This document shows positions 1 through 11,699 of a stretch of 64,000 nucleotides of DNA, piece after piece. Below the pieces are notes generated by a model, which saw only the letters and a list, made by a program, of their open reading frames with translations, searched no databases and was not told the origin of the DNA. Both the position numbers and the translations under genes were made by a program. This stretch comes from Lentimicrobiaceae bacterium (GTDB lineage: Bacteria; Bacteroidota; Bacteroidia; Bacteroidales; F082), in contig JABJIE010000015.1 in the NCBI GenBank assembly GCA_018661505.1, forward strand, positions 8,424 to 72,423. The letters are read 5' to 3'. Within the stretch, counting starts at the first letter, position 1. Each line of letters begins with the position of its first letter.

Positions 1-359
1 AATGTCTTTTCATTTTCGGCAGTATAAATATGATTGAGGAAATGAGGATAACTGTAAATATTATTCTTTGCTCCAAGATCACGAATTTTACCAGCATACT
101 TCCACATAATAAGGAACCCAATTACATATGCAATTCCAATTGCAACAGCAGCGAAGCCAGATTCATATCCCAAAGCCATTAGCCCAATGGATGTGCCTCC
201 ACCAACAAATGTTGCAAGAACTGTAAATACAAGAGGCAGTGTTCTTGTGTTACGATTATTAACAAGATACTGATCTAGATCAGAAGTTTTTATATGACGC
301 AGTGAAAGGATAACTATGAGCGCTAGAAACAATACAATCCAAAAAATTAGCCAGCCCAT
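1..359 (-). CDS. Sodium:solute symporter-family permease, N-terminal part. The gene continues past the left edge of the window.
   Basis: Not in the ORF track because there is no stop inside the window. The reverse complement from the ATG (cat at 357-359) reads MGWLIFWIVLFLALIVILSLRHIKTSDLDQYLVNNRNTRTLPLVFTVLATFVGGGTSIGLMALGYESGFAAVAIGIAYVIGF.... This gives TM1, then a 'yl-vnnR' segment, then 'ATfvGGGTS', as in SSF transporters. Confidence 0.55.
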   Translation of the reverse strand, partial: MGWLIFWIVLFLALIVILSLRHIKTSDLDQYLVNNRNTRTLPLVFTVLATFVGGGTSIGLMALGYESGFAAVAIGIAYVIGFLIMWKYAGKIRDLGAKNNIYSYPHFLNHIYTAENEKT

Positions 360-396
360 AATAAATAGGTATTAATTAGTGCGGAGTTTTTTGCCA

Positions 397-1953
397 TTAC
401 CCATCAAATCTGATTTTAACATACTCATTAATATCTGTAAGAGATGAAAGTTGCTGTGATGCATTTCCAGATCTTACATAAAATTTTTCAATTTCATTAC
501 CTTGTTTATTTCTTGTTTTTAGAAATATTGGATTTTTAGATGCTTTTATCTGAATTATACATATGATCTTATCATTTATTTTGGGGAAGCTTATTTTCAA
601 ATTATCGTTTGAAAAAGCTATCCCATATTGGTTAACAATTAATTTTCTTAGGTGTAGTTCAAAATAATCAGCATCATTTTTTTTAAGACTATTAAAGTCA
701 TTGTCAAGTCCAATTATTTCCAATTCATCATTAACACCAATAAATAAGTTTCCCCCTTTTGCATTTGCGAAAGCACATATACTTTTCATAATTACCTCTT
801 CCAGAATTTTGTTAGACTTACTCTCTCTATAATCCCATCTTAGAGAAGATTTAAATTCGACATATTCAGTTTCGCCTCCTTTAATCATTGTTTTAACATC
901 TGCAATGTCAAGATTCATTGGAAATAATTTATCACCTTTCAATCTTGGTTTTCTCAAAAAGAAAAAAAGTGCAACTAGAGACATAATTGCAAATGTGATG
1001 GATAAATATAGGTATATACGCTCTTTATTGCGTTCTGTAATGGCGAGGTCATGGGCAGATATTGTAACAGAAAAACCTTTAATTCCAATCATTGAGGGTA
1101 CATTTACTATTCTTGTCCAGTATATGCTATTATTTTTTTCGAAGGAATATGAGTGTGGTAGAAGTTCTTCACTACTACTCCATTTGTTTATTAGTTTTTT
1201 TACGTTTAAATCAATATCCATATGGAATTTAATGTTTGAGCTATCATTGTTAACTAGCGGTGTGATGATATTATTGTCGGTAGTTATTATTGAAATAAGA
1301 GGATTTTCGAACCTCATAACATCAGCAAATTTATTTTTAAGTTCAGGAGTGTAATAAATCAAGCCAGCTATAATTTCCTCTCCCGTTATCTTTTTTGACT
1401 TAAATATAATACTAATGGTATTCTTGGATTCAGGTATGGTATGATCTGACGCCACCCATACATAATTGGAATTATCTAAAGCACTTTTGATTGAATCAAT
1501 ATTGTTATTACTAGGAAATGCGGTATAGATGTCTGTCCATTCACTTTTTACTTCAAGTTTGTTGTTTAATCTTTGCCAGTTGGATGTACTATCAGATAGG
1601 TTTCCATCGTAGGAAACAGCCCACGATGAGTTATCTTTAAAAATCAAATAGCTAAATGAATCATTCGATAAAGCAATTCCTGTGAGGAATGATTCGGAAT
1701 TTATAACTTTAGTGATGTGTGGGGTGAGATTTTCTTCGATTAAAAAGGCCTCATCTTTTAGATCTTTATTAAAAGTATTAATGGTTTTATCAATTGTTGA
1801 AAGAAAATCCTGAAAGCTTGACTTAAATGTATCCGTTGTGGTTGTAATTATCTCATCTGCAAAACTATCTTCTTGATTCTTTATAATAAAAATCATAAAA
1901 AGAACAATTGAGATTATTGGCAAAGCAATAATAAATAAGCTTTTTTTGCGCAT
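397..1953 (-). CDS. Two-TM membrane protein with an extracytoplasmic Cache-like sensor region and a cytoplasmic AlbA_2 (Schlafen-type, putative nucleic-acid-binding) domain.
   Basis: 518 aa. TM1 is near residues 5-25 and is followed by about 290 aa of Ser/Asn-rich alpha/beta region. TM2 (IYLYLSITFAIMSLVALFFFL) is followed by basic RKPRLK. The C-terminal part reads GGETEYVEFKSSL...ICAFANAKGGNLFIGVNDELEIIGL...YVRSGNASQQL, which matches the AlbA_2 signature. Confidence 0.7.
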   Translation of the reverse strand: MRKKSLFIIALPIISIVLFMIFIIKNQEDSFADEIITTTTDTFKSSFQDFLSTIDKTINTFNKDLKDEAFLIEENLTPHITKVINSESFLTGIALSNDSFSYLIFKDNSSWAVSYDGNLSDSTSNWQRLNNKLEVKSEWTDIYTAFPSNNNIDSIKSALDNSNYVWVASDHTIPESKNTISIIFKSKKITGEEIIAGLIYYTPELKNKFADVMRFENPLISIITTDNNIITPLVNNDSSNIKFHMDIDLNVKKLINKWSSSEELLPHSYSFEKNNSIYWTRIVNVPSMIGIKGFSVTISAHDLAITERNKERIYLYLSITFAIMSLVALFFFLRKPRLKGDKLFPMNLDIADVKTMIKGGETEYVEFKSSLRWDYRESKSNKILEEVIMKSICAFANAKGGNLFIGVNDELEIIGLDNDFNSLKKNDADYFELHLRKLIVNQYGIAFSNDNLKISFPKINDKIICIIQIKASKNPIFLKTRNKQGNEIEKFYVRSGNASQQLSSLTDINEYVKIRFDG

Positions 1954-2008
1954 AATTTAAGGGTAAACCATTTTTATCAAAAATATGATTTTTATTTACT
2001 TAAGGGAT

Positions 2009-2947
2009 TCAAGTTAGTGAATCTATATTTCGTTTTAATCCTTTATATCGAGTTCGATTCACCGCAGATCCTTTGAATAATTTATTGAACTCAACCTTTT
2101 CAAGAATTTTCCATTTTTCTTTTGTCATAGCCTTTAAGTCGCTACTTGGATTAAAAAGGGGTTCATTATGCTGGGTGGAAAACCGATTCCATGGGCATAC
2201 ATCCTGGCAGATATCACATCCAAACATCCAATTTTTTGCCTTTTGTTTAAATTTCGTATCCAAATCTCCACGGTATTCAATTGTTAGATATGAGATGCAT
2301 TTTTTTGAATCCACATTAAATTCTGTAATTGCTTGTGTAGGACAGGCATCGATACATTTGGTGCAGTTGCCGCAAAAGTCTTTAGTTATCTCTGTATCCG
2401 AATAATTTAACTCAAGCTCTGTTATAATATTACCTATGAAAAAGAATGAACCTCCTTTTTTATTTATTAGCATGGTGTTTTTGCCAACGAATCCTAAACC
2501 GCTTTTTCTTGCCCATGCTCTATCCATTACGGGTGCTGAATCAACAAAAACACGTGTGTTATATTTTCCTGCTTTAGTTTCAATTATTTTAACAAGAGTA
2601 TTTAACTTTTCTTTCATTACATAATGATAATCTGTACCATATGCATATTTAGATATTTTAAAATTGTCTTTTTCAGGAAGTTTATCATTAGGAAAATAAT
2701 TATACAAAACAGTAATAACTGATTTGGAATTTTCAACAAGCAATTTTGGGTTATATCTTTTATCCTTGTTTCTATCAAGGTAACTCATTTCTCCGTTTCC
2801 CTTCTCTGACAGCCACTTCTCCATCCGTTCTTTGTCACCGGTAAGCTCTTGAGCTTTTGAAATACCACAATCAAAAAAACCTAATTTTTTAGCCTCATCT
2901 ATGATGAATTCGTTTAATTGGTCTTGTATCAATTTTTGTAGAGGCAA
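2009..2947 (-). CDS. queG: tRNA epoxyqueuosine(34) reductase
   Basis: 312 aa. Two 4Fe-4S ferredoxin motifs (CGNCTKCIDACP, CDICQDVCPWN) plus conserved QueG blocks (YARGxDYH-like 'YAYGTDYHYVMK', 'SAPVMDRAWA'). Confidence 0.9.
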   Translation of the reverse strand: MPLQKLIQDQLNEFIIDEAKKLGFFDCGISKAQELTGDKERMEKWLSEKGNGEMSYLDRNKDKRYNPKLLVENSKSVITVLYNYFPNDKLPEKDNFKISKYAYGTDYHYVMKEKLNTLVKIIETKAGKYNTRVFVDSAPVMDRAWARKSGLGFVGKNTMLINKKGGSFFFIGNIITELELNYSDTEITKDFCGNCTKCIDACPTQAITEFNVDSKKCISYLTIEYRGDLDTKFKQKAKNWMFGCDICQDVCPWNRFSTQHNEPLFNPSSDLKAMTKEKWKILEKVEFNKLFKGSAVNRTRYKGLKRNIDSLT

Positions 2948-2991
2948 CTTATTAGATTACTATCGATTACACATTGCAATGCTTGGAAGTT

Positions 2992-4014
2992 CTAGAATAA
3001 TTCTCTTTGATCGCGTTTCTTTATTTTGCCAAGATGTTCATATGCTCTTTGGGTAACTTCTCTTCCGCGAGGTGTTCTCATAATAAAACCTTCCTGGATT
3101 AGGAATGGTTCATACACTTCTTCTATGGTATCTCTCTCTTCACCACAGGCAGTGGCAATTGTGGTTATACCAACGGGTCCTCCTTTGAATTTATCGATTA
3201 TTGTTGTCAAGATTCTATTGTCCATCTCATCAAGGCCATTTTTATCAACATTTAATGCTTTAAGCGCATGTTGGGATATATCGACATCAATATTACCATC
3301 TCCAACAATTTGAGCAAAATCTCGTACTCTTCTTAAGAGTAGGTTGGCGATTCTTGGCGTCCCTCTGCTTCTTCCGGCTATTTCCTTGGCGGCATTCTCT
3401 TTTATACTAACATCAAGTATTGAGGAACTTCTTTTTACTATTGATGATAGAGTGCCTTTATTGTAATACTCCAATCTTGACGTAATTCCAAATCTAGATC
3501 TCAACGGCGCAGTAAGTAAACCCGAACGTGTTGTTGCTCCAATTAGAGTAAAGGGATTAATGGTTATTTGAACGGATCTCGCATTGGGACCTGTTTCGAT
3601 CATAATATCAATTTTGAAGTCTTCCATTGCAGAATAAAGATACTCTTCTACGACTGGGCTTAAACGATGAATCTCATCAATAAAAAGTACATCATTTTCA
3701 CTCAAATTGGTAAGTAAACCTGCAAGGTCTCCTGGCTTGTCAAGTACAGGCCCCGATGTTGTAATTATATTAACACCTAGTTCATTCGAAATTATGTGAG
3801 ATAAAGTTGTTTTTCCAAGCCCTGGAGGACCATGTAAAAGAACATGATCCAAAGCATCGCCCCTTTGTTTAGCAGCCTCCACAAAGATTTTAAGATTTTC
3901 AACAACACTTGGCTGGCCAGTAAAATGATCAAAGTGACCAGGACGAAGTGACTTTTCTATTTCTCTCTCGTCATTGGTTAGGTCTGATCCACTGGCATCA
4001 AGGTTTTCATTCAT
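2992..4014 (-). CDS. ruvB: Holliday junction branch-migration helicase RuvB
   Basis: 340 aa. LRPxxFxxFxGQ, Walker [10 protein letters not shown], Walker B FIDEIHRL, and the RuvB C-terminal winged helix (LDxMDxRIL, EPFLIQxGFIxRTPRGR). Confidence 0.97.
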
Positions 4015-4314
4015 CTATCACTATATTTATCACAAAAGTAGGGGAAATTAGCTTAAACACCCAAATATAATTTGTCCATGAATGATATACCATAATTTTT
4101 TGATTTAAAAACCTTGAAAATTGGCATATATTTGTTATATTAGCACCAATGGAGTATAGAACTTGATGACCTTGTGGATTGTATATATAAACATCATAAA
4201 TGGAGTATTGTGCAGCTACTGCAAATAATTTTTTGAGATAATATGTACTACAATTTATTAATAAATAAACCACATAAATATTTAGTGTACGATAGATAAA
4301 TCAGTATAAAATTA

Positions 4315-4725
4315 ATGAGAAGTATATTTTTAGCCATAGCAGCAATATTACTTACAGTTACCGTAGCGTTAGCACAGAGCCCATCAAATGGACATTCTAT
4401 TGTTATAAGTGATGGTCGTGTTGATTCCTTACTTCAGCTACATATTAACCACAATGAATCCTTTCCTACTTTTCCAGGTTATCGAGTACAAATTTTAATG
4501 GCATCAGGGAATGATGCTTTGGATGTTATAGATCAAGTAAAAGCTAAGTTTGAAAAAAAATACCCCGATATAAATCTATATTTAACATTTGGTGAGCCTA
4601 ACTACAGATTAAGGGCCGGTGATTTTAGGACCCGATTGGAAGCTGAGAATTTCCTTCAGAAAATACAGAGAAAATATCCCGGAGCATGGGTAACGCAGGA
4701 TAATATAAATTTTCCTGAGATGTAA
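4315..4725 (+). CDS. Secreted SPOR-domain (peptidoglycan-binding) protein
   Basis: 136 aa. N-terminal signal peptide (AILLTVTVALAQ). The C-terminal half reads GYRVQI..., ...YRLRAGDFRTRLEAENFLQKI, typical of a SPOR fold. Confidence 0.7.
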   Translation: MRSIFLAIAAILLTVTVALAQSPSNGHSIVISDGRVDSLLQLHINHNESFPTFPGYRVQILMASGNDALDVIDQVKAKFEKKYPDINLYLTFGEPNYRLRAGDFRTRLEAENFLQKIQRKYPGAWVTQDNINFPEM

Positions 4726-9872: not shown

Positions 9873-10443
9873 CTTAATTCTTTTGATAACTACCATTTCA
9901 TGTGATCAAAATACAACACCACTTCCACGTGGCTATTTTAGAATTGATATGCCAGAGCATAATTATATGTTATCTGACACAACCTTTCCCTATTATTTTG
10001 AATATCCAGTTTATACACAACTTATAGAGCCAACAAAAAATCATGGTCAGGAATATTGGTTGAATGTTGAGTATCCACAGTTTAATTCAACTATATTCCT
10101 CAGCTATAAACCAGTTAATGGAAATCTTATATCATATCTTGAAGACTCCTATACACTTGTATCTAAACATATTCCAAAGGCTGAGGATATACTTGATAGT
10201 GTTATTGTCGACAGAGATAGAAATATGTACGGGCTCACATATAAAATAGAAGGGAGTGGTGCTGCCTCACCATATCAATTTTTCCTAACTGATAGTGCTT
10301 CTCATTTCGTAAGAGGTGCATTGTATTTTAATATGAAACCCAACAACGATTCATTGGAACCGGTAATAGATTTTATATCCAAAGATATTGAACACATGTT
10401 AAATACAATGGAGTGGAATGATAGTTATGATTACTCACAGTAG
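9850..10443 (+). CDS. gldD: Gliding-motility lipoprotein GldD
   Basis: 197 aa with a TTG start that overlaps the gldE 3' end. Lipoprotein signal ...LLITTISC followed by 'PRGYFRIDMP'. Size and position directly after gldE fit GldD. Confidence 0.7.
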   Translation: MKRILIYSLILLITTISCDQNTTPLPRGYFRIDMPEHNYMLSDTTFPYYFEYPVYTQLIEPTKNHGQEYWLNVEYPQFNSTIFLSYKPVNGNLISYLEDSYTLVSKHIPKAEDILDSVIVDRDRNMYGLTYKIEGSGAASPYQFFLTDSASHFVRGALYFNMKPNNDSLEPVIDFISKDIEHMLNTMEWNDSYDYSQ

Positions 10444-11699
10444 AAGTTGATCATTTGTTGAATACCCCTATTACAAACAGGACAAAATTCATTAACCCTA
10501 AAGCTATTCATCAAGCAATCGTGCATGGGACGATACACCCCCTTTGCCACATAACCTCCTCCTTCAAATACACCAACTTTATCCTTATATTTTTCAGTGT
10601 CTGGAGTAGGAATTGGAGTTCTTTTCTTAACCATATCTTTCCATTTACTCTCGAAGTCAACCAGTGTGGTAAGATTAGGCTCCCATGGTTCAGCATTAAG
10701 ATTATAGAAGTCAATGTATGATGTTGATGATGTATAATACTCGTCACCTAGTCCGGCAAATCCATGTCCTAGCTCATGGATAAATATTTGGGCAGCTTTC
10801 TCATTACTATTTACACTAACGCTGTAGTAATTATATATGGCGCCTCCACCATATTTCTTGGTGTTAACTAGTATGTAAATCTGATCATATGGTACATTAG
10901 CAGCCAGATCCCTAACACTTTTGTTATCAAGGGTCATACAATACCTCTCACTATCAAACGTGTAGAAAGATGTGTTAAGTAATGTTTTGTTCCAAATATT
11001 ATTTGCTGGGATATCATTTCCCGAATCGCTAGATGGGGCTAATATTCCGTAAATATTAAAGTTGTTCTCATTAACAGAATATGGATAATAGTTAAATAGT
11101 CCACTTGTAAACTCCCTACAATCATCGATAAATTGACCCATTTCATCTTTGGAGTAGCCTTCAGGAAGTATAACTATATCAACTTTTTTGGATGGATCAC
11201 CAGATTTATAAGCCATAAAAGATGGATAAACCAATCGTCGATCTTTCTTTATGAAATAATCATTCGGATCTACTTCATGAATGAAAGACTCAACAAAAAT
11301 TTCATCATAATTGCGGGAATAAATTTTAACTACAACTGGCTTTTTTGGAAAAGGAAATACAACGGTTTCAGAGAATGCCCTACTTATTTTATTTGCTTCA
11401 TCTGTGGTTTGCCATTCAGCAAATAATGTAGAATATCCTCTGGAATATAGTAATGAATCATTAGACTTATTAAATACTTTTACATAATAATTGCCATATT
11501 CAAAGGTGTCAACAAGATTAGTTTTTGACCCTCCCCAAAAAGGTTCTTCCAATATCTCCTCAAAAAAGAACATTTCTGTGTTACTGTTGCCACCATGAGT
11601 GTAGTCAAGCCTCATTGTCTTGTCTTCAAAATATTTTTCAAATTGTGCAGTTCCTGATATACTACTAAATATTAATAATAGACTAAGCCAATTTTTCAT
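10431..11699 (-). CDS. Secreted M64-family (IgA-peptidase-like) zinc metallopeptidase
   Basis: The ORF extends to 11753, but a signal peptide begins at the internal Met (MKNWLSLLLIFSSISGTAQ). That start at 11699 also avoids overlap with the upstream gene. Zinc site HELGHGFAGLGDEY. Confidence 0.85.
   Translation of the reverse strand: MKNWLSLLLIFSSISGTAQFEKYFEDKTMRLDYTHGGNSNTEMFFFEEILEEPFWGGSKTNLVDTFEYGNYYVKVFNKSNDSLLYSRGYSTLFAEWQTTDEANKISRAFSETVVFPFPKKPVVVKIYSRNYDEIFVESFIHEVDPNDYFIKKDRRLVYPSFMAYKSGDPSKKVDIVILPEGYSKDEMGQFIDDCREFTSGLFNYYPYSVNENNFNIYGILAPSSDSGNDIPANNIWNKTLLNTSFYTFDSERYCMTLDNKSVRDLAANVPYDQIYILVNTKKYGGGAIYNYYSVSVNSNEKAAQIFIHELGHGFAGLGDEYYTSSTSYIDFYNLNAEPWEPNLTTLVDFESKWKDMVKKRTPIPTPDTEKYKDKVGVFEGGGYVAKGVYRPMHDCLMNSFRVNEFCPVCNRGIQQMINFYCE

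What the first reader, a model, noticed from the sequence alone, without database searches (positions are those of the whole stretch)
397..1953. Transmembrane sensor fused to an AlbA_2/Schlafen-like domain
The 518-aa protein has a clear N-in topology. A short basic N-terminus and TM1 are followed by about 290 aa of extracytoplasmic alpha/beta region that reads like a Cache/PDC-type ligand-binding module. TM2 is followed by RKPRLK and then a cytoplasmic AlbA_2 domain (GGETEYVEFKSSL...ICAFANAKGGNLFIGVND..IIGL...YVRSGNASQQL). In the prokaryotic architectures I know, AlbA_2 sits in soluble proteins, usually fused to HATPase-like and wHTH modules (the 'RecG-like' regulators). It is related to the Schlafen core, which acts on nucleic acids. 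Here there is no HTH, kinase, cyclase or other recognised transmitter, so the AlbA_2 domain is the only candidate output. Tethering it to the membrane under a periplasmic sensor suggests an undescribed one-component signalling or defence-like device.
Basis: partly seen in the sequence, partly recalled or inferred. Interest (0 to 1): 0.6.

Follow-up and report, generated by a model that had tools for sequence, protein, structure and literature searches.

The report
Membrane sensor fused to Schlafen nuclease
This gene encodes a two-pass membrane protein whose outside part looks like a bacterial ligand sensor and whose inside part is a Schlafen-type RNA-cutting domain, so a signal from outside the cell may directly switch an RNase on or off.

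Summary
ORF 397..1953 (-) encodes 518 aa with TM1 6-24, about 290 aa outside, TM2 315-333, then PF04326 SLFN_AlbA_2 (E 2.8e-20) running to the C-terminus, with no other domain.

The Schlafen catalytic signature (E361-x4-E366-x-K368, AFAN box, D409) is invariant in the family. The cytoplasmic domain is 69% identical across 43 homologues, against 38% for the outside part.

The outside part is Cache-like only by transitive evidence. It matches related 2-TM AlbA_2 proteins (hhalign 99.7%), and their joint profile hits solved dCache chemoreceptor domains. The family's own profiles hit none.

The same AlbA_2 clade also follows SBP_bac_3 periplasmic domains and a response-regulator receiver domain. 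It separates in a tree from DUF262 (6 rows) and SBP_bac_3 (14 rows) fusions.

The gene is single-copy. It sits in a housekeeping block (ruvB-queG-X-SSF-tadA), not in a defence island, and I found no full-length copy on phage or plasmid records.

Best reading (about 0.5): a ligand-gated receptor-RNase, a signalling branch of the prokaryotic Schlafens. Six literature searches found no description of it.

The parts
397..1953 (-). Whole gene, 518 aa (stop codon 397-399)
   Evidence: 840 homologues
1882..1938 (-). TM1, residues 6-24, preceded by the cytoplasmic stub MRKKS (1939-1953)
   Evidence: hydropathy 3.2 and charge flanks; conserved in 43 homologues
1012..1881 (-). Extracytoplasmic region, residues 25-314. 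Putative dCache-like sensor. Family-invariant I36, G92, W126, R128, W139, W166, F209, W258, T297
   Evidence: A1 invariants. hhalign 99.7% to the P0161 group. The superfamily profile hits solved Cache/MCP sensor domains. ESM Atlas part search gives 0.95 to Cache-clan clusters. No direct Pfam or PDB hit for the family alone
955..1011 (-). TM2, residues 315-333
901..954 (-). Basic, poorly conserved juxtamembrane linker, residues 334-351 (RKPRLKGDK...)
   Evidence: 22% mean pairwise identity; the TM2-to-GE distance is 25-33 aa in 42 homologues
400..900 (-). Cytoplasmic Schlafen/AlbA_2 domain, residues 352-518
   Evidence: PF04326 E 2.8e-20. PDB profile hits to SLFN11, 12, 14, 8 and 5. 69% mean pairwise identity
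850..873 (-). E361-x4-E366-F-K368, the Ex4(E/D)xK nuclease motif
   Evidence: Invariant in A1. E361 in 367, E366 in 368 and K368 in 369 of 372 domain rows. The motif is defined in PMC13056530 sec. 6 and in the SLFN-pAgo preprint sec. 10
727..729 (-). D409 in the GVxD motif, candidate third acidic residue
   Evidence: 368 of 372 rows. It aligns with the second D of GVDD in SLFN11 chain 7fex_A
2009..2947 (-). Upstream neighbour queG (tRNA epoxyqueuosine(34) reductase), 55-nt gap, same strand
   Evidence: TIGR00276 319 bits; Pfam; immediately upstream in 29 of 47 family loci
3..359 (-). Downstream neighbour, SSF-family permease (5' part; the gene runs beyond the window). 37-nt gap, same strand. 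Followed by tadA

Best explanation
The protein is a one-polypeptide transmembrane receptor-nuclease.

Anatomy. An extracytoplasmic, probably dCache-type, ligand-binding domain sits between two TM helices. A short flexible basic linker joins TM2 to a cytoplasmic Schlafen (AlbA_2) metal-dependent RNase domain.

Proposed mechanism (inferred). The receptor is dimeric or oligomeric. What happens at the outside domain changes how two or more Schlafen domains pack against each other under the membrane. Single-lobe bacterial Schlafen domains must pair to form the bilobed, horseshoe-shaped active site. Pairing would therefore switch on cleavage of tRNA or another RNA and throttle translation.

What is shown: the gene, the topology signal, the AlbA_2 domain with its catalytic signature, the family and its synteny.

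What is inferred: the Cache fold, ligand gating, the RNA substrate and the physiological role.

Given the housekeeping context, I favour a stress or nutrient response over a mobile defence role.
For: 1. Architecture and topology.

2. Catalytic competence. Ex4ExK, the AFAN box and D409 are invariant in 43 of 43 family members and near-invariant in 372 domain rows, 319 of them unique. The motif is the one reported as essential for tRNA cleavage in SLFN11 and bacterial Schlafens (PMC13056530 sec. 6 read; PMC13462974 passages; preprint 10.64898/2026.05.29.728809 sec. 10 passages). The profile aligns to the SLFN11, 12, 14, 8 and 5 nuclease lobes.

3. Sensor. The family's N-part is homologous over 325 columns to related 2-TM AlbA_2 proteins (hhalign 99.7%, E 9e-27). 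P0161, the first row of that aligned group, has a Pfam dCache_1 match (E 5.4e-8, below the cut-off), as do 4 of the 61 two-TM proteins scanned. The joint profile hits solved sensor domains: 7w0w MCP 6.9e-6, 9hvj 'Cache domain protein' 4.5e-4, 6iop 9.3e-4. The Atlas features of residues 1-340 point to the Cache clan.

4. Output-domain logic. Close relatives of the same AlbA_2 type follow SBP_bac_3 (8 of 61 two-TM proteins; 64 bits, above the cut-off) or a REC receiver domain (63.8 bits against a cut-off of 30.2; 301-aa proteins in 5 or more MAGs). In a tree of 158 AlbA_2 domains, a clade of 82 (support 0.89) holds 46/46 family members, 16/19 other large-periplasm 2-TM proteins, 7/8 mid-periplasm ones, 3/3 REC fusions, 1/35 soluble others, 0/6 DUF262 fusions and 0/14 SBP_bac_3 fusions.

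5. Selection. AlbA_2 is 69% identical across the family, the sensor 38% and the linker 22%.

6. Context. The gene is single-copy and lies in ruvB-queG-X-SSF-tadA-RluA family on one strand, with 6-57-nt gaps and no minus-strand terminator-like site. The own locus holds no defence genes. 104 neighbour proteins from 10 loci with other contexts gave few PADLOC hits.

7. Metatranscriptome assemblies of 20 runs from 17 studies hold the stretch.
Against: The Cache assignment is transitive. Pfam finds nothing in residues 25-314 of this protein, and family-only profiles hit no solved Cache domain.

No HAMP-like or other known transmitter links TM2 to the nuclease. The linker is the least conserved part, so the route of signal transmission is unexplained.

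The gene is dispensable and patchy. It occurs in 6 of 14 genera of its family, and is cleanly missing from one genome of the same genus, G007, with the block otherwise intact. It appears full-length in 0 of 400 sampled genomes of the phylum. That pattern also fits an accessory defence gene.

Among the relatives I annotated, the soluble ones are DUF262, HsdM, REase and other fusions. The published view is that bacterial AlbA_2 domains are mainly immune effectors (PMC12680541 passages; PMC13056530 sec. 6).

Nuclease activity, substrate and ligand are all untested. RNA-library contigs do not prove transcription.
Confidence: 0.5

Rival explanations
1. It is an anti-phage abortive-infection device. 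The outside domain detects phage adsorption, injection or envelope damage, and the Schlafen domain then cleaves tRNA to stop translation, as in the published bacterial Schlafen defence proteins.
For: Bacterial Schlafens fused to sensors protect against phage and cleave tRNA (PMC13056530 sec. 6; PMC13462974 passages). A DUF262-Slfn fusion is a proven defence gene. DUF262, HsdM and REase fusions are among the relatives of this AlbA_2 domain (plasmid hits). The distribution is patchy, with a clean loss in G007. The outside domain evolves much faster than the nuclease.
Against: The own locus is housekeeping on both sides for 10 kb or more. Synteny is stable across 10 of 13 related genomes, and 29 of 47 family loci keep queG immediately upstream. 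Only scattered PADLOC hits appear among 104 neighbours of 10 divergent loci. There is no match on phage records and no full-length match on plasmid records. The gene is single-copy. In the tree the membrane and REC forms separate from the DUF262 forms. PMC13056530 itself reports 30.4% of prokaryotic Schlafen genes away from defence genes.
Confidence: 0.25
2. It is a non-catalytic, membrane-tethered nucleic-acid binder. The AlbA_2 domain binds DNA or RNA, as in ToxR-like tethered regulators or RNA sequestration, and the outside domain controls the binding.
For: Public names for relatives include 'AlbA family DNA-binding domain-containing protein' and 'RNA-binding domain-containing protein'. The REC-AlbA_2 relatives resemble DNA-binding response regulators in layout, and sources file them as such. 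Several mammalian Schlafens lack catalytic residues (PMC13462974 introduction passage).
Against: The nuclease motif and the conserved Asp are kept in about 99% of 372 domain rows. A pure binder would not need that. No HTH or other DNA-reading module is present.
Confidence: 0.12
3. It is a tethered latent nuclease released by regulated proteolysis. The membrane anchor keeps the RNase inactive or away from its substrate. A periplasmic event triggers cleavage of the anchor and frees the domain.
For: The TM2-nuclease linker is unconserved and flexible. Stand-alone and short-anchor forms of the same AlbA_2 type exist.
Against: No protease partner is conserved next to the gene in the main context. 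A Peptidase_C69 gene follows it in only 5 of 47 loci. Many of the short forms may be assembly fragments.
Confidence: 0.08

Closest known systems
Prokaryotic Schlafen (pSlfn) effectors fused to sensor domains (PMC13056530; Cash, PMC13462974; SLFN-pAgo preprint 10.64898/2026.05.29.728809)
   Same: It has the same nuclease domain with the Ex4(E/D)xK motif and the AFAN box. It follows the same design rule of one Schlafen effector plus a variable sensor in one polypeptide. Activation of those proteins works by oligomerisation, which is the mechanism proposed here.
   Different: The proteins described are cytoplasmic (HisKinase/GHKL, HTH, Ig-like, DUF262, Csx15, NACHT, Ago) and mostly sit near defence genes. 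Here the sensor is extracytoplasmic, between two TM helices, and the gene sits in a housekeeping block. The words membrane, transmembrane, Cache and periplasm do not occur in the main text of PMC13056530. Its Supplementary Table 2, which lists 55 domain compositions, could not be seen.
dCache-type transmembrane receptors (chemoreceptors, histidine kinases, cyclases; PMC4822843)
   Same: The layout is TM, then about 290 aa outside, then TM. There is transitive profile similarity to solved dCache sensor domains.
   Different: The output is a nuclease domain, not an MCP, kinase, GGDEF/EAL, cyclase or phosphatase module, and no HAMP is present. The terms 'AlbA' and 'nuclease' do not occur in PMC4822843. 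This protein itself does not reach any Pfam Cache model.
'RecG-like' / Schlatpase proteins (AlbA_2 + GHKL ATPase +/- HTH)
   Same: They share the AlbA_2 domain. NCBI names homologues of this protein 'ATP-binding protein' by transfer from this group.
   Different: This protein has no ATPase and no HTH, and it ends at the AlbA_2 domain. The public name 'ATP-binding protein' is therefore misleading.
Eukaryotic Ire1 (recalled; not searched here)
   Same: It works alike in outline: a sensor on the far side of a membrane, a membrane span, and an RNase on the cytosolic side that is switched by oligomerisation.
   Different: The folds are unrelated (kinase plus KEN-domain RNase). This is an analogy only and came from no call.

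Membership tests
Schlafen / AlbA_2 (PF04326) nuclease domain | Match to the Pfam model above the gathering score | tested here: met
   73.5 bits against 25.3, residues 361-502, profile positions 1-117 of 118
Schlafen / AlbA_2 (PF04326) nuclease domain | Ex4(E/D)xK catalytic motif | tested here: met
   E361-TEYV-E366-F-K368, invariant in 43 of 43 and in 367-369 of 372 rows. The motif is as defined in PMC13056530 sec. 6
Schlafen / AlbA_2 (PF04326) nuclease domain | Schlafen box (S)AFAN and the glycine-hydrophobic core with a third acidic residue | tested here: met
   C393-AFAN397 and GGNLFIGVND409. A394, F395, N397, G400, G401, G406 and D409 are invariant. D409 aligns with the second D of SLFN11 GVDD. 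Which D of GVDD is the published catalytic one was not resolved here
Schlafen / AlbA_2 (PF04326) nuclease domain | Metal-dependent RNA cleavage | not testable with these tools
   Needs biochemistry
dCache / PDC extracytoplasmic sensor | Significant match of this protein to a Cache-clan model or solved Cache domain | tested here: not met
   No Pfam hit in residues 25-314. Family profiles A1 and A5 hit no Cache chain
dCache / PDC extracytoplasmic sensor | Homology through intermediates to Cache domains | tested here: met
   hhalign 99.7% over 325 columns to the P0161 group. P0161 matches dCache_1 at E 5.4e-8. dCache_1 is found in 4 of 61 and MCP-like_PDC_1 in 1 of 61. The A3 profile hits 7w0w, 9hvj and 6iop
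dCache / PDC extracytoplasmic sensor | Long N-terminal helix plus two PAS-like modules in 3-D | not testable with these tools
Anti-phage pSlfn defence genes | Known defence genes within about 10 kb | tested here: not met
   The own locus holds metG, an LD-carboxypeptidase, a methyltransferase, an RluA-family gene, tadA, SSF, queG, ruvB and a SPOR-domain gene by Pfam/NCBIfam. Usp, RNase G/E, HU and ssb are my working labels from ORF translations and synteny, not from a family search. Among 104 neighbours of 10 divergent loci there were only single PADLOC hits: RT_UG29 in 1, and partial PD-Lambda-2 matches, one of them (PD-Lambda-2_B) placed on a 122-aa ORF of L062
Anti-phage pSlfn defence genes | Protection against phage | not testable with these tools
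   Needs experiment
Schlatpase / 'RecG-like' AlbA_2-GHKL-HTH regulators | GHKL ATPase domain after AlbA_2 | tested here: not met
   There is no such Pfam hit, and the protein ends 16 aa after the Pfam match
Bacterial signal-transduction output domain (one-component or response-regulator logic) | The same output domain combined with different recognised input domains | tested here: met
   dCache-like, SBP_bac_3 and REC inputs occur on close AlbA_2 relatives. They share one clade, apart from the SBP_bac_3 forms
Bacterial signal-transduction output domain (one-component or response-regulator logic) | Output activity changed by the input signal | not testable with these tools
   Needs experiment

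The most novel reading that the evidence does not exclude
Schlafen RNase domains form a so-far unlisted output class of bacterial signal transduction. Transmembrane receptor-RNases (dCache-like or SBP-type sensor, TM, Schlafen) and Schlafen response regulators (REC-Schlafen) would turn extracellular or phosphorelay signals directly into tRNA/RNA cleavage. That would be a bacterial counterpart, in logic, of Ire1.

In the Lentimicrobiaceae lineage the gene's persistent adjacency to tadA (and to queG) raises a further possibility: the target or the signal may be tied to the modification state of tRNA position 34.
Probability: 0.3. Interest if true: 0.85.

Novelty: new variant of a known kind. Interest (0 to 1): 0.62.

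Why it matters
Censuses of bacterial transmembrane signalling list kinases, chemoreceptors, cyclases, phosphodiesterases, phosphatases and tethered DNA binders as outputs (my recollection; PMC4822843 says only that Cache proteins carry 'known output domains'). A nuclease is not among them.

If this protein is a ligand-gated RNase, it shows a direct route from an external cue to translation control. It would also widen bacterial Schlafen biology from phage defence to ordinary physiology.

The family also gives a compact test bed for how Schlafen nucleases are switched by assembly: two TM helices and a 165-aa effector. The REC-Schlafen relatives offer a phosphorylation-switchable version.

On the practical side, the public names ('ATP-binding protein', 'YesN/AraC family response regulator') are misleading. 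The 499-aa start calls probably drop TM1.

Tried and rejected
The ESM Atlas has no model of this protein.

Direct Cache assignment. Pfam on the protein, the family profile A1 and the periplasm-only profile A5 gave no Cache hit. The best A5 hits were noise (NUP159 at 0.17, CdiI at 0.3). Only the wider profile A3 reached solved Cache domains.

Same sensor with other outputs. A region search on residues 25-320 found 18 proteins, all carrying PF04326 only. Profile A5 against longer proteins (528-2000 aa) found one protein, also PF04326 only. The tool itself calls the second result weak evidence.

Defence context. PADLOC on the protein gave no hit. Neighbour scans gave few hits. I did not locate the single RT_UG29 hit.

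Mobility. There was no phage match, and plasmid matches covered only the AlbA_2 part (10 records, 0 with 80% or more of the query).

Promoters. Sigma-70-like sites were at chance level, 22 found against 21.7 expected, so they were not used.

Earlier notes of this scan held nothing.

The tadA/queG link is kept as a lead only. All loci that show it belong to one broad lineage, and the queG-SSF-tadA block also exists without the gene.

Literature. Six searches and passages of seven papers showed no membrane-tethered or REC-linked Schlafen. Supplementary tables, notably Supplementary Table 2 of PMC13056530, were closed and may list such compositions.

Tree. I left out 12 rows labelled AlbA_2-only or fragment. 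I kept only 13 of the close family members P0001-P0121 and 13 locus ORFs. The root is at midpoint and the sample is the best 150 hits to this protein, so it is biased towards its relatives.
Full report
THE GENE. The minus-strand ORF 397..1953 encodes 518 aa. A hydropathy scan finds two membrane spans, residues 6-24 and 315-333. The short N-terminus (MRKKS) and the stretch after TM2 (RKPRLKGDK) are basic. The flanks facing the 290-aa middle region are acidic. Over 43 aligned homologues the mean net charge is +3.6 after TM2, -1.5 after TM1 and -1.3 before TM2. By the positive-inside rule, both ends are cytoplasmic and residues 25-314 lie outside. Pfam gives a single domain, PF04326 SLFN_AlbA_2, at residues 361-502 (E 2.8e-20, 73.5 bits, cut-off 25.3). 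NCBIfam and PADLOC give nothing.

THE FAMILY. A word-indexed search found 840 homologues. The best 120 are 38-56% identical and nearly all 508-537 aa and full length (two shorter). PF04326 is their only Pfam domain. An exhaustive search of 1.84 billion cluster representatives gave 5,687 hits at E<=0.001 and 119 at E<=1e-30. Of the 146 listed proteins that I parsed, 142 carry the domain, and in 138 it ends within 21 aa of the C-terminus. No homologue adds a kinase, HTH or ATPase after it, so nothing has been truncated here. The organism is a marine Lentimicrobiaceae/Bacteroidales MAG. The exact protein was seen on 203 contigs.

THE CYTOPLASMIC DOMAIN IS BUILT LIKE AN ACTIVE SCHLAFEN NUCLEASE. 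In the 43-member alignment the invariant residues are G360, E361, E366, K368, S369, S370, R372, D374, K390, A394, F395, N397, A398, G400, G401, G406, D409, D419, D429 and others. E361-x4-E366-x-K368 is the Ex4(E/D)xK motif. PMC13056530 (section 6 read) reports that motif as essential for tRNA cleavage by SLFN11 and conserved in 5,930 prokaryotic Schlafens. The SLFN-pAgo preprint (passages of section 10) adds the 'SAFAN' Schlafen box and an acidic triad holding a metal. Here the box reads C393-AFAN397.

Across 372 aligned domains of this subfamily (319 unique; P ids and locus ORFs overlap), E361 is kept in 367, E366 in 368, K368 in 369, N397 in 372 and D409 in 368. A profile of the family aligns these residues with the PESQSIEFK ... 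AFANT.EGGSLFIGVDD stretch of SLFN11 (7fex, E 3.3e-7), and also hits SLFN12, 14, 8 and 5. D409 pairs with the second D of GVDD. I could not settle which of the two is the published catalytic Asp.

The domain is 69% identical on average across the family. The outside region is 38% identical and the TM2-domain linker 22%. That degree of constraint fits an enzyme working on a very conserved substrate.

THE OUTSIDE DOMAIN. Nothing in Pfam covers residues 25-314. Profiles of the family alone (A1, and A5 for the periplasm only) find no solved Cache domain. The Cache reading rests on intermediates.
- BLAST links the N-parts of 44 of 61 two-TM AlbA_2 proteins by single linkage.
- hhalign of the family's N-part against a group around P0161 gives 99.7% probability and E 9e-27 over 325 columns.
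- P0161 has a dCache_1 match (E 5.4e-8, 33 bits, below the cut-off of 45). P0147 has an MCP-like_PDC_1 match (E 7.7e-5).
- Of the 61 two-TM proteins, 4 match dCache_1, 1 matches MCP-like_PDC_1 and 8 match SBP_bac_3.
- The joint profile A3 hits solved sensor domains: 7w0w (chemoreceptor, 6.9e-6), 9hvj ('Cache domain protein', 4.5e-4, 164 profile positions), 6iop (9.3e-4), and 6iov, 3c8c and 5ave at about 0.06.
- The ESM Atlas features of residues 1-340 score 0.95 to clusters carrying HK_sensor_dom_bact, dCache_1, MCP-like_PDC_1, dCache_2 and Cache_3-Cache_2. They share 146-165 of 256 features, below the 170 typical of same-family hits, so this is only a lead.

Family-invariant W126, R128, W139, W166 and W258 may line a pocket, but that is a guess. 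This periplasmic family was found only on AlbA_2 proteins (weak evidence).

THE SAME NUCLEASE TYPE SERVES AS THE C-TERMINAL MODULE OF SEVERAL INPUT DOMAINS. These relatives are 40-50% identical in the AlbA_2 part.
- Soluble fusions carry GmrSD_N/DUF262 (4 proteins above the cut-off), HsdM_N plus N6_Mtase, a REase plus DUF3320, Metallophos, or pentapeptide repeats.
- Two-TM proteins carry SBP_bac_3 outside (64 bits, cut-off 26).
- 264-273-aa proteins have one or two TM helices and almost no outside part. They occur in cultured Flagellimonas (10 species), Aquimarina and Croceitalea, and in Prolixibacteraceae, Marinifilaceae and Draconibacterium MAGs.
- 301-aa proteins consist of a receiver domain plus AlbA_2 (Response_reg 63.8 bits, cut-off 30.2; the REC is most like BtsR/LytR). 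They are present in at least five MAGs and in a cluster of 32 sequences that sources call 'YesN/AraC' or 'LytR/AlgR' response regulators.

In a FastTree (LG+gamma, 165 columns, 158 domains, midpoint root) one clade of 82 (support 0.89) contains 46/46 family members, 16/19 other large-periplasm two-TM proteins, 7/8 mid-periplasm ones and 3/3 REC fusions. It holds only 1/35 soluble others, 0/6 DUF262 fusions and 0/14 SBP_bac_3 forms. That is the pattern expected of a signalling output domain. The sample is biased, because it is the set of best hits to this protein.

CONTEXT AND DISTRIBUTION. The window is G000:C12:8424-72423. With the 8.4 kb to the left fetched, the neighbourhood reads: AI-2E transporter, metG, LD-carboxypeptidase, a methyltransferase, RluA-family pseudouridine synthase, tadA, SSF permease, the gene, queG, ruvB, then a SPOR-domain gene. 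The labels for the genes beyond SPOR (Usp, RNase G/E, HU, ssb) come from my reading of the ORF translations and synteny, not from a family search. From ruvB to the RluA-family gene all genes are on one strand with gaps of 6-57 nt, and there is no terminator-like site on that strand in 1-4400.

In 41 related genomes the gene is full length and single-copy in 16. That is 10 of 11 other genomes of the genus, 6 of 14 genera of the family, and none of the 16 genomes searched from other families of the order. queG is adjacent in 10 of 13 fetched loci. The neighbours are more conserved than the gene: ruvB 77-88%, SSF 65-84%, queG 57-66%, against 40-53% for the gene, leaving out the near-identical G004.

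The one genome of the genus without the gene (G007, 96% complete) has ruvB-queG-SSF-tadA intact, with 57 nt where the gene would be. Three other genera without it lack SSF-tadA after queG.

Among 47 family loci from a scan of 185,579 species genomes, 32 have tadA within three genes downstream. Of those, 25 have queG upstream, 5 have another upstream gene and 2 lie at a contig edge. Five have a Peptidase_C69 gene instead.

A sample of 400 genomes of the phylum has no full-length copy; 10 genomes match only the AlbA_2 part. Family members also occur in MAGs labelled Chlorobiota, Ignavibacteriales, Melioribacteraceae and Marinilabiliales. A related 557-aa form occurs in Vulcanimicrobiota. The Atlas lists clusters of the same feature type whose commonest phylum is Thermodesulfobacteriota.

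DEFENCE OR PHYSIOLOGY? Published work places most bacterial Schlafens near defence genes: 69.6% within 10 kb, against 0.13-0.19 defence genes per locus for ribosomal-protein controls (PMC13056530 section 6). PMC12680541 (passages) argues that immune defence is their primary role.

Here the own locus has no defence gene. PADLOC on 104 neighbours of 10 loci with other contexts gave 20 families, each in one or two proteins. Most were generic (GlgB, MotA/ExbB-like 'ZorA', TPR). There was one RT_UG29, and there were partial PD-Lambda-2 A/B matches; the PD-Lambda-2_B match lies on a 122-aa ORF of L062. The Pfam tally of the same set is housekeeping. There is no match on 50,697 phage records and no full-length match on 72,556 plasmid records.

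Against this stand the patchy distribution, the clean loss in G007 and the fast-evolving outside domain. These keep the defence reading alive, and I give it 0.25.

EXPRESSION. Twenty marine metatranscriptome runs from 17 studies hold the stretch 1-4100. In four runs laid as contigs, one 2,907-nt contig covers 1-2512 (SSF, the gene and queG) without a mismatch. Contigs of all four runs stop at 4007-4009, just inside the called ruvB start at 4014. This is a weak hint of a transcript start there and of real RNA origin. The tool warns that contigs show neither transcription nor single transcripts.

MECHANISM. Shown: the layout and the conserved catalytic signature. Inferred from the literature on single-lobe bacterial Schlafens: two domains must pair to rebuild the bilobed horseshoe (SLFN-pAgo preprint, section 10 passages), and activation works by oligomerisation or filament formation (PMC13462974 passages). 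dCache receptors are dimers, which I recall rather than tested.

The simplest model is that the state of the outside domain sets the pairing of the Schlafen domains beneath the membrane and so gates RNA cleavage. The weak point is the 25-33-aa unconserved linker with no HAMP-like element. It argues for control by proximity or assembly rather than by a rigid helical relay. It also leaves room for release by proteolysis.

VERDICT. It is a new variant of a recently established kind, the sensor-fused prokaryotic Schlafen nucleases. It is distinguished by an extracytoplasmic sensor, by a sister group of REC-Schlafen proteins and by a non-defence context. Six literature searches and the passages read found no description. 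Supplementary tables that might list it were closed.

Noticed in passing
L079:6765-7670 (+); also L075, L077, L078, L080, L081; P0151: 301-aa proteins made of a receiver (REC) domain plus the same AlbA_2/Schlafen type. This would be a response regulator with a nuclease-type output. Sources file them as YesN/AraC or LytR/AlgR response regulators.
   Followed up: partly
L096-L105 (match about 9983-10777), L095:9791-10585: 264-aa AlbA_2 proteins with one or two N-terminal TM helices and almost no outside domain. They are nearly identical across ten cultured Flagellimonas species and also occur in Aquimarina and Croceitalea. In L099 the next genes are a lycopene-cyclase-domain gene and a Usp gene. 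They would be tractable relatives for experiments.
   Followed up: partly
L082:9116-10474 and 10471-11052: In Treponemataceae MAGs a 452-aa two-TM AlbA_2 protein overlaps by 4 nt with a downstream RNase_T-family exonuclease gene, and a hexapeptide transferase gene lies upstream. By length and layout it resembles the SBP_bac_3 forms such as P0210. My local profile did not label it SBP_bac_3, and its AlbA_2 domain falls inside the dCache-like/REC clade.
   Followed up: no
L093:7535-9757: In a Prolixibacteraceae genome two HisKA/HATPase_c histidine-kinase genes lie directly upstream of a 270-aa membrane-anchored AlbA_2 gene.
   Followed up: no
L107 (G007:C80), between 9124 and 9182 of the locus: One genome of the same genus lacks the gene but keeps ruvB-queG-SSF-tadA. 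Only 57 nt separate queG and SSF, so this is a clean presence/absence polymorphism.
   Followed up: yes
window 1897-1953: Several public records of the same 90% cluster give the protein as 499 aa. By length these would start at Met20 and cut off TM1, which would mislead topology prediction. The N-terminal basic stub plus TM1 is conserved in the homologues. I did not inspect the 499-aa sequences themselves.
   Followed up: partly
window 4007-4009: Metatranscriptome contigs of four runs all end here, 5-7 nt inside the called ruvB start (4014). This may be the 5' end of an operon transcript, or the ruvB start may be miscalled.
   Followed up: no
G000:C64:27001-27339 (L111:7729-8244, -): The genome has a second, unrelated AlbA_2 ORF (PF04326 77.6 bits, open frame 228 aa). 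It is soluble. From the ORF translations its neighbours look like the aspartate carbamoyltransferase pair (pyrI/pyrB) on one side and an outer-membrane-like protein on the other; I ran no family search on them.
   Followed up: partly
window 3..2947 and L002:5983-7338: The gene lies between two enzymes that modify tRNA position 34: queG upstream and, after the permease, tadA downstream. A RluA-family pseudouridine synthase follows and metG is nearby. tadA stays downstream in 32 of 47 family loci, including 5 with a different upstream gene. All of these belong to one broad lineage, so shared descent is not excluded.
   Followed up: partly
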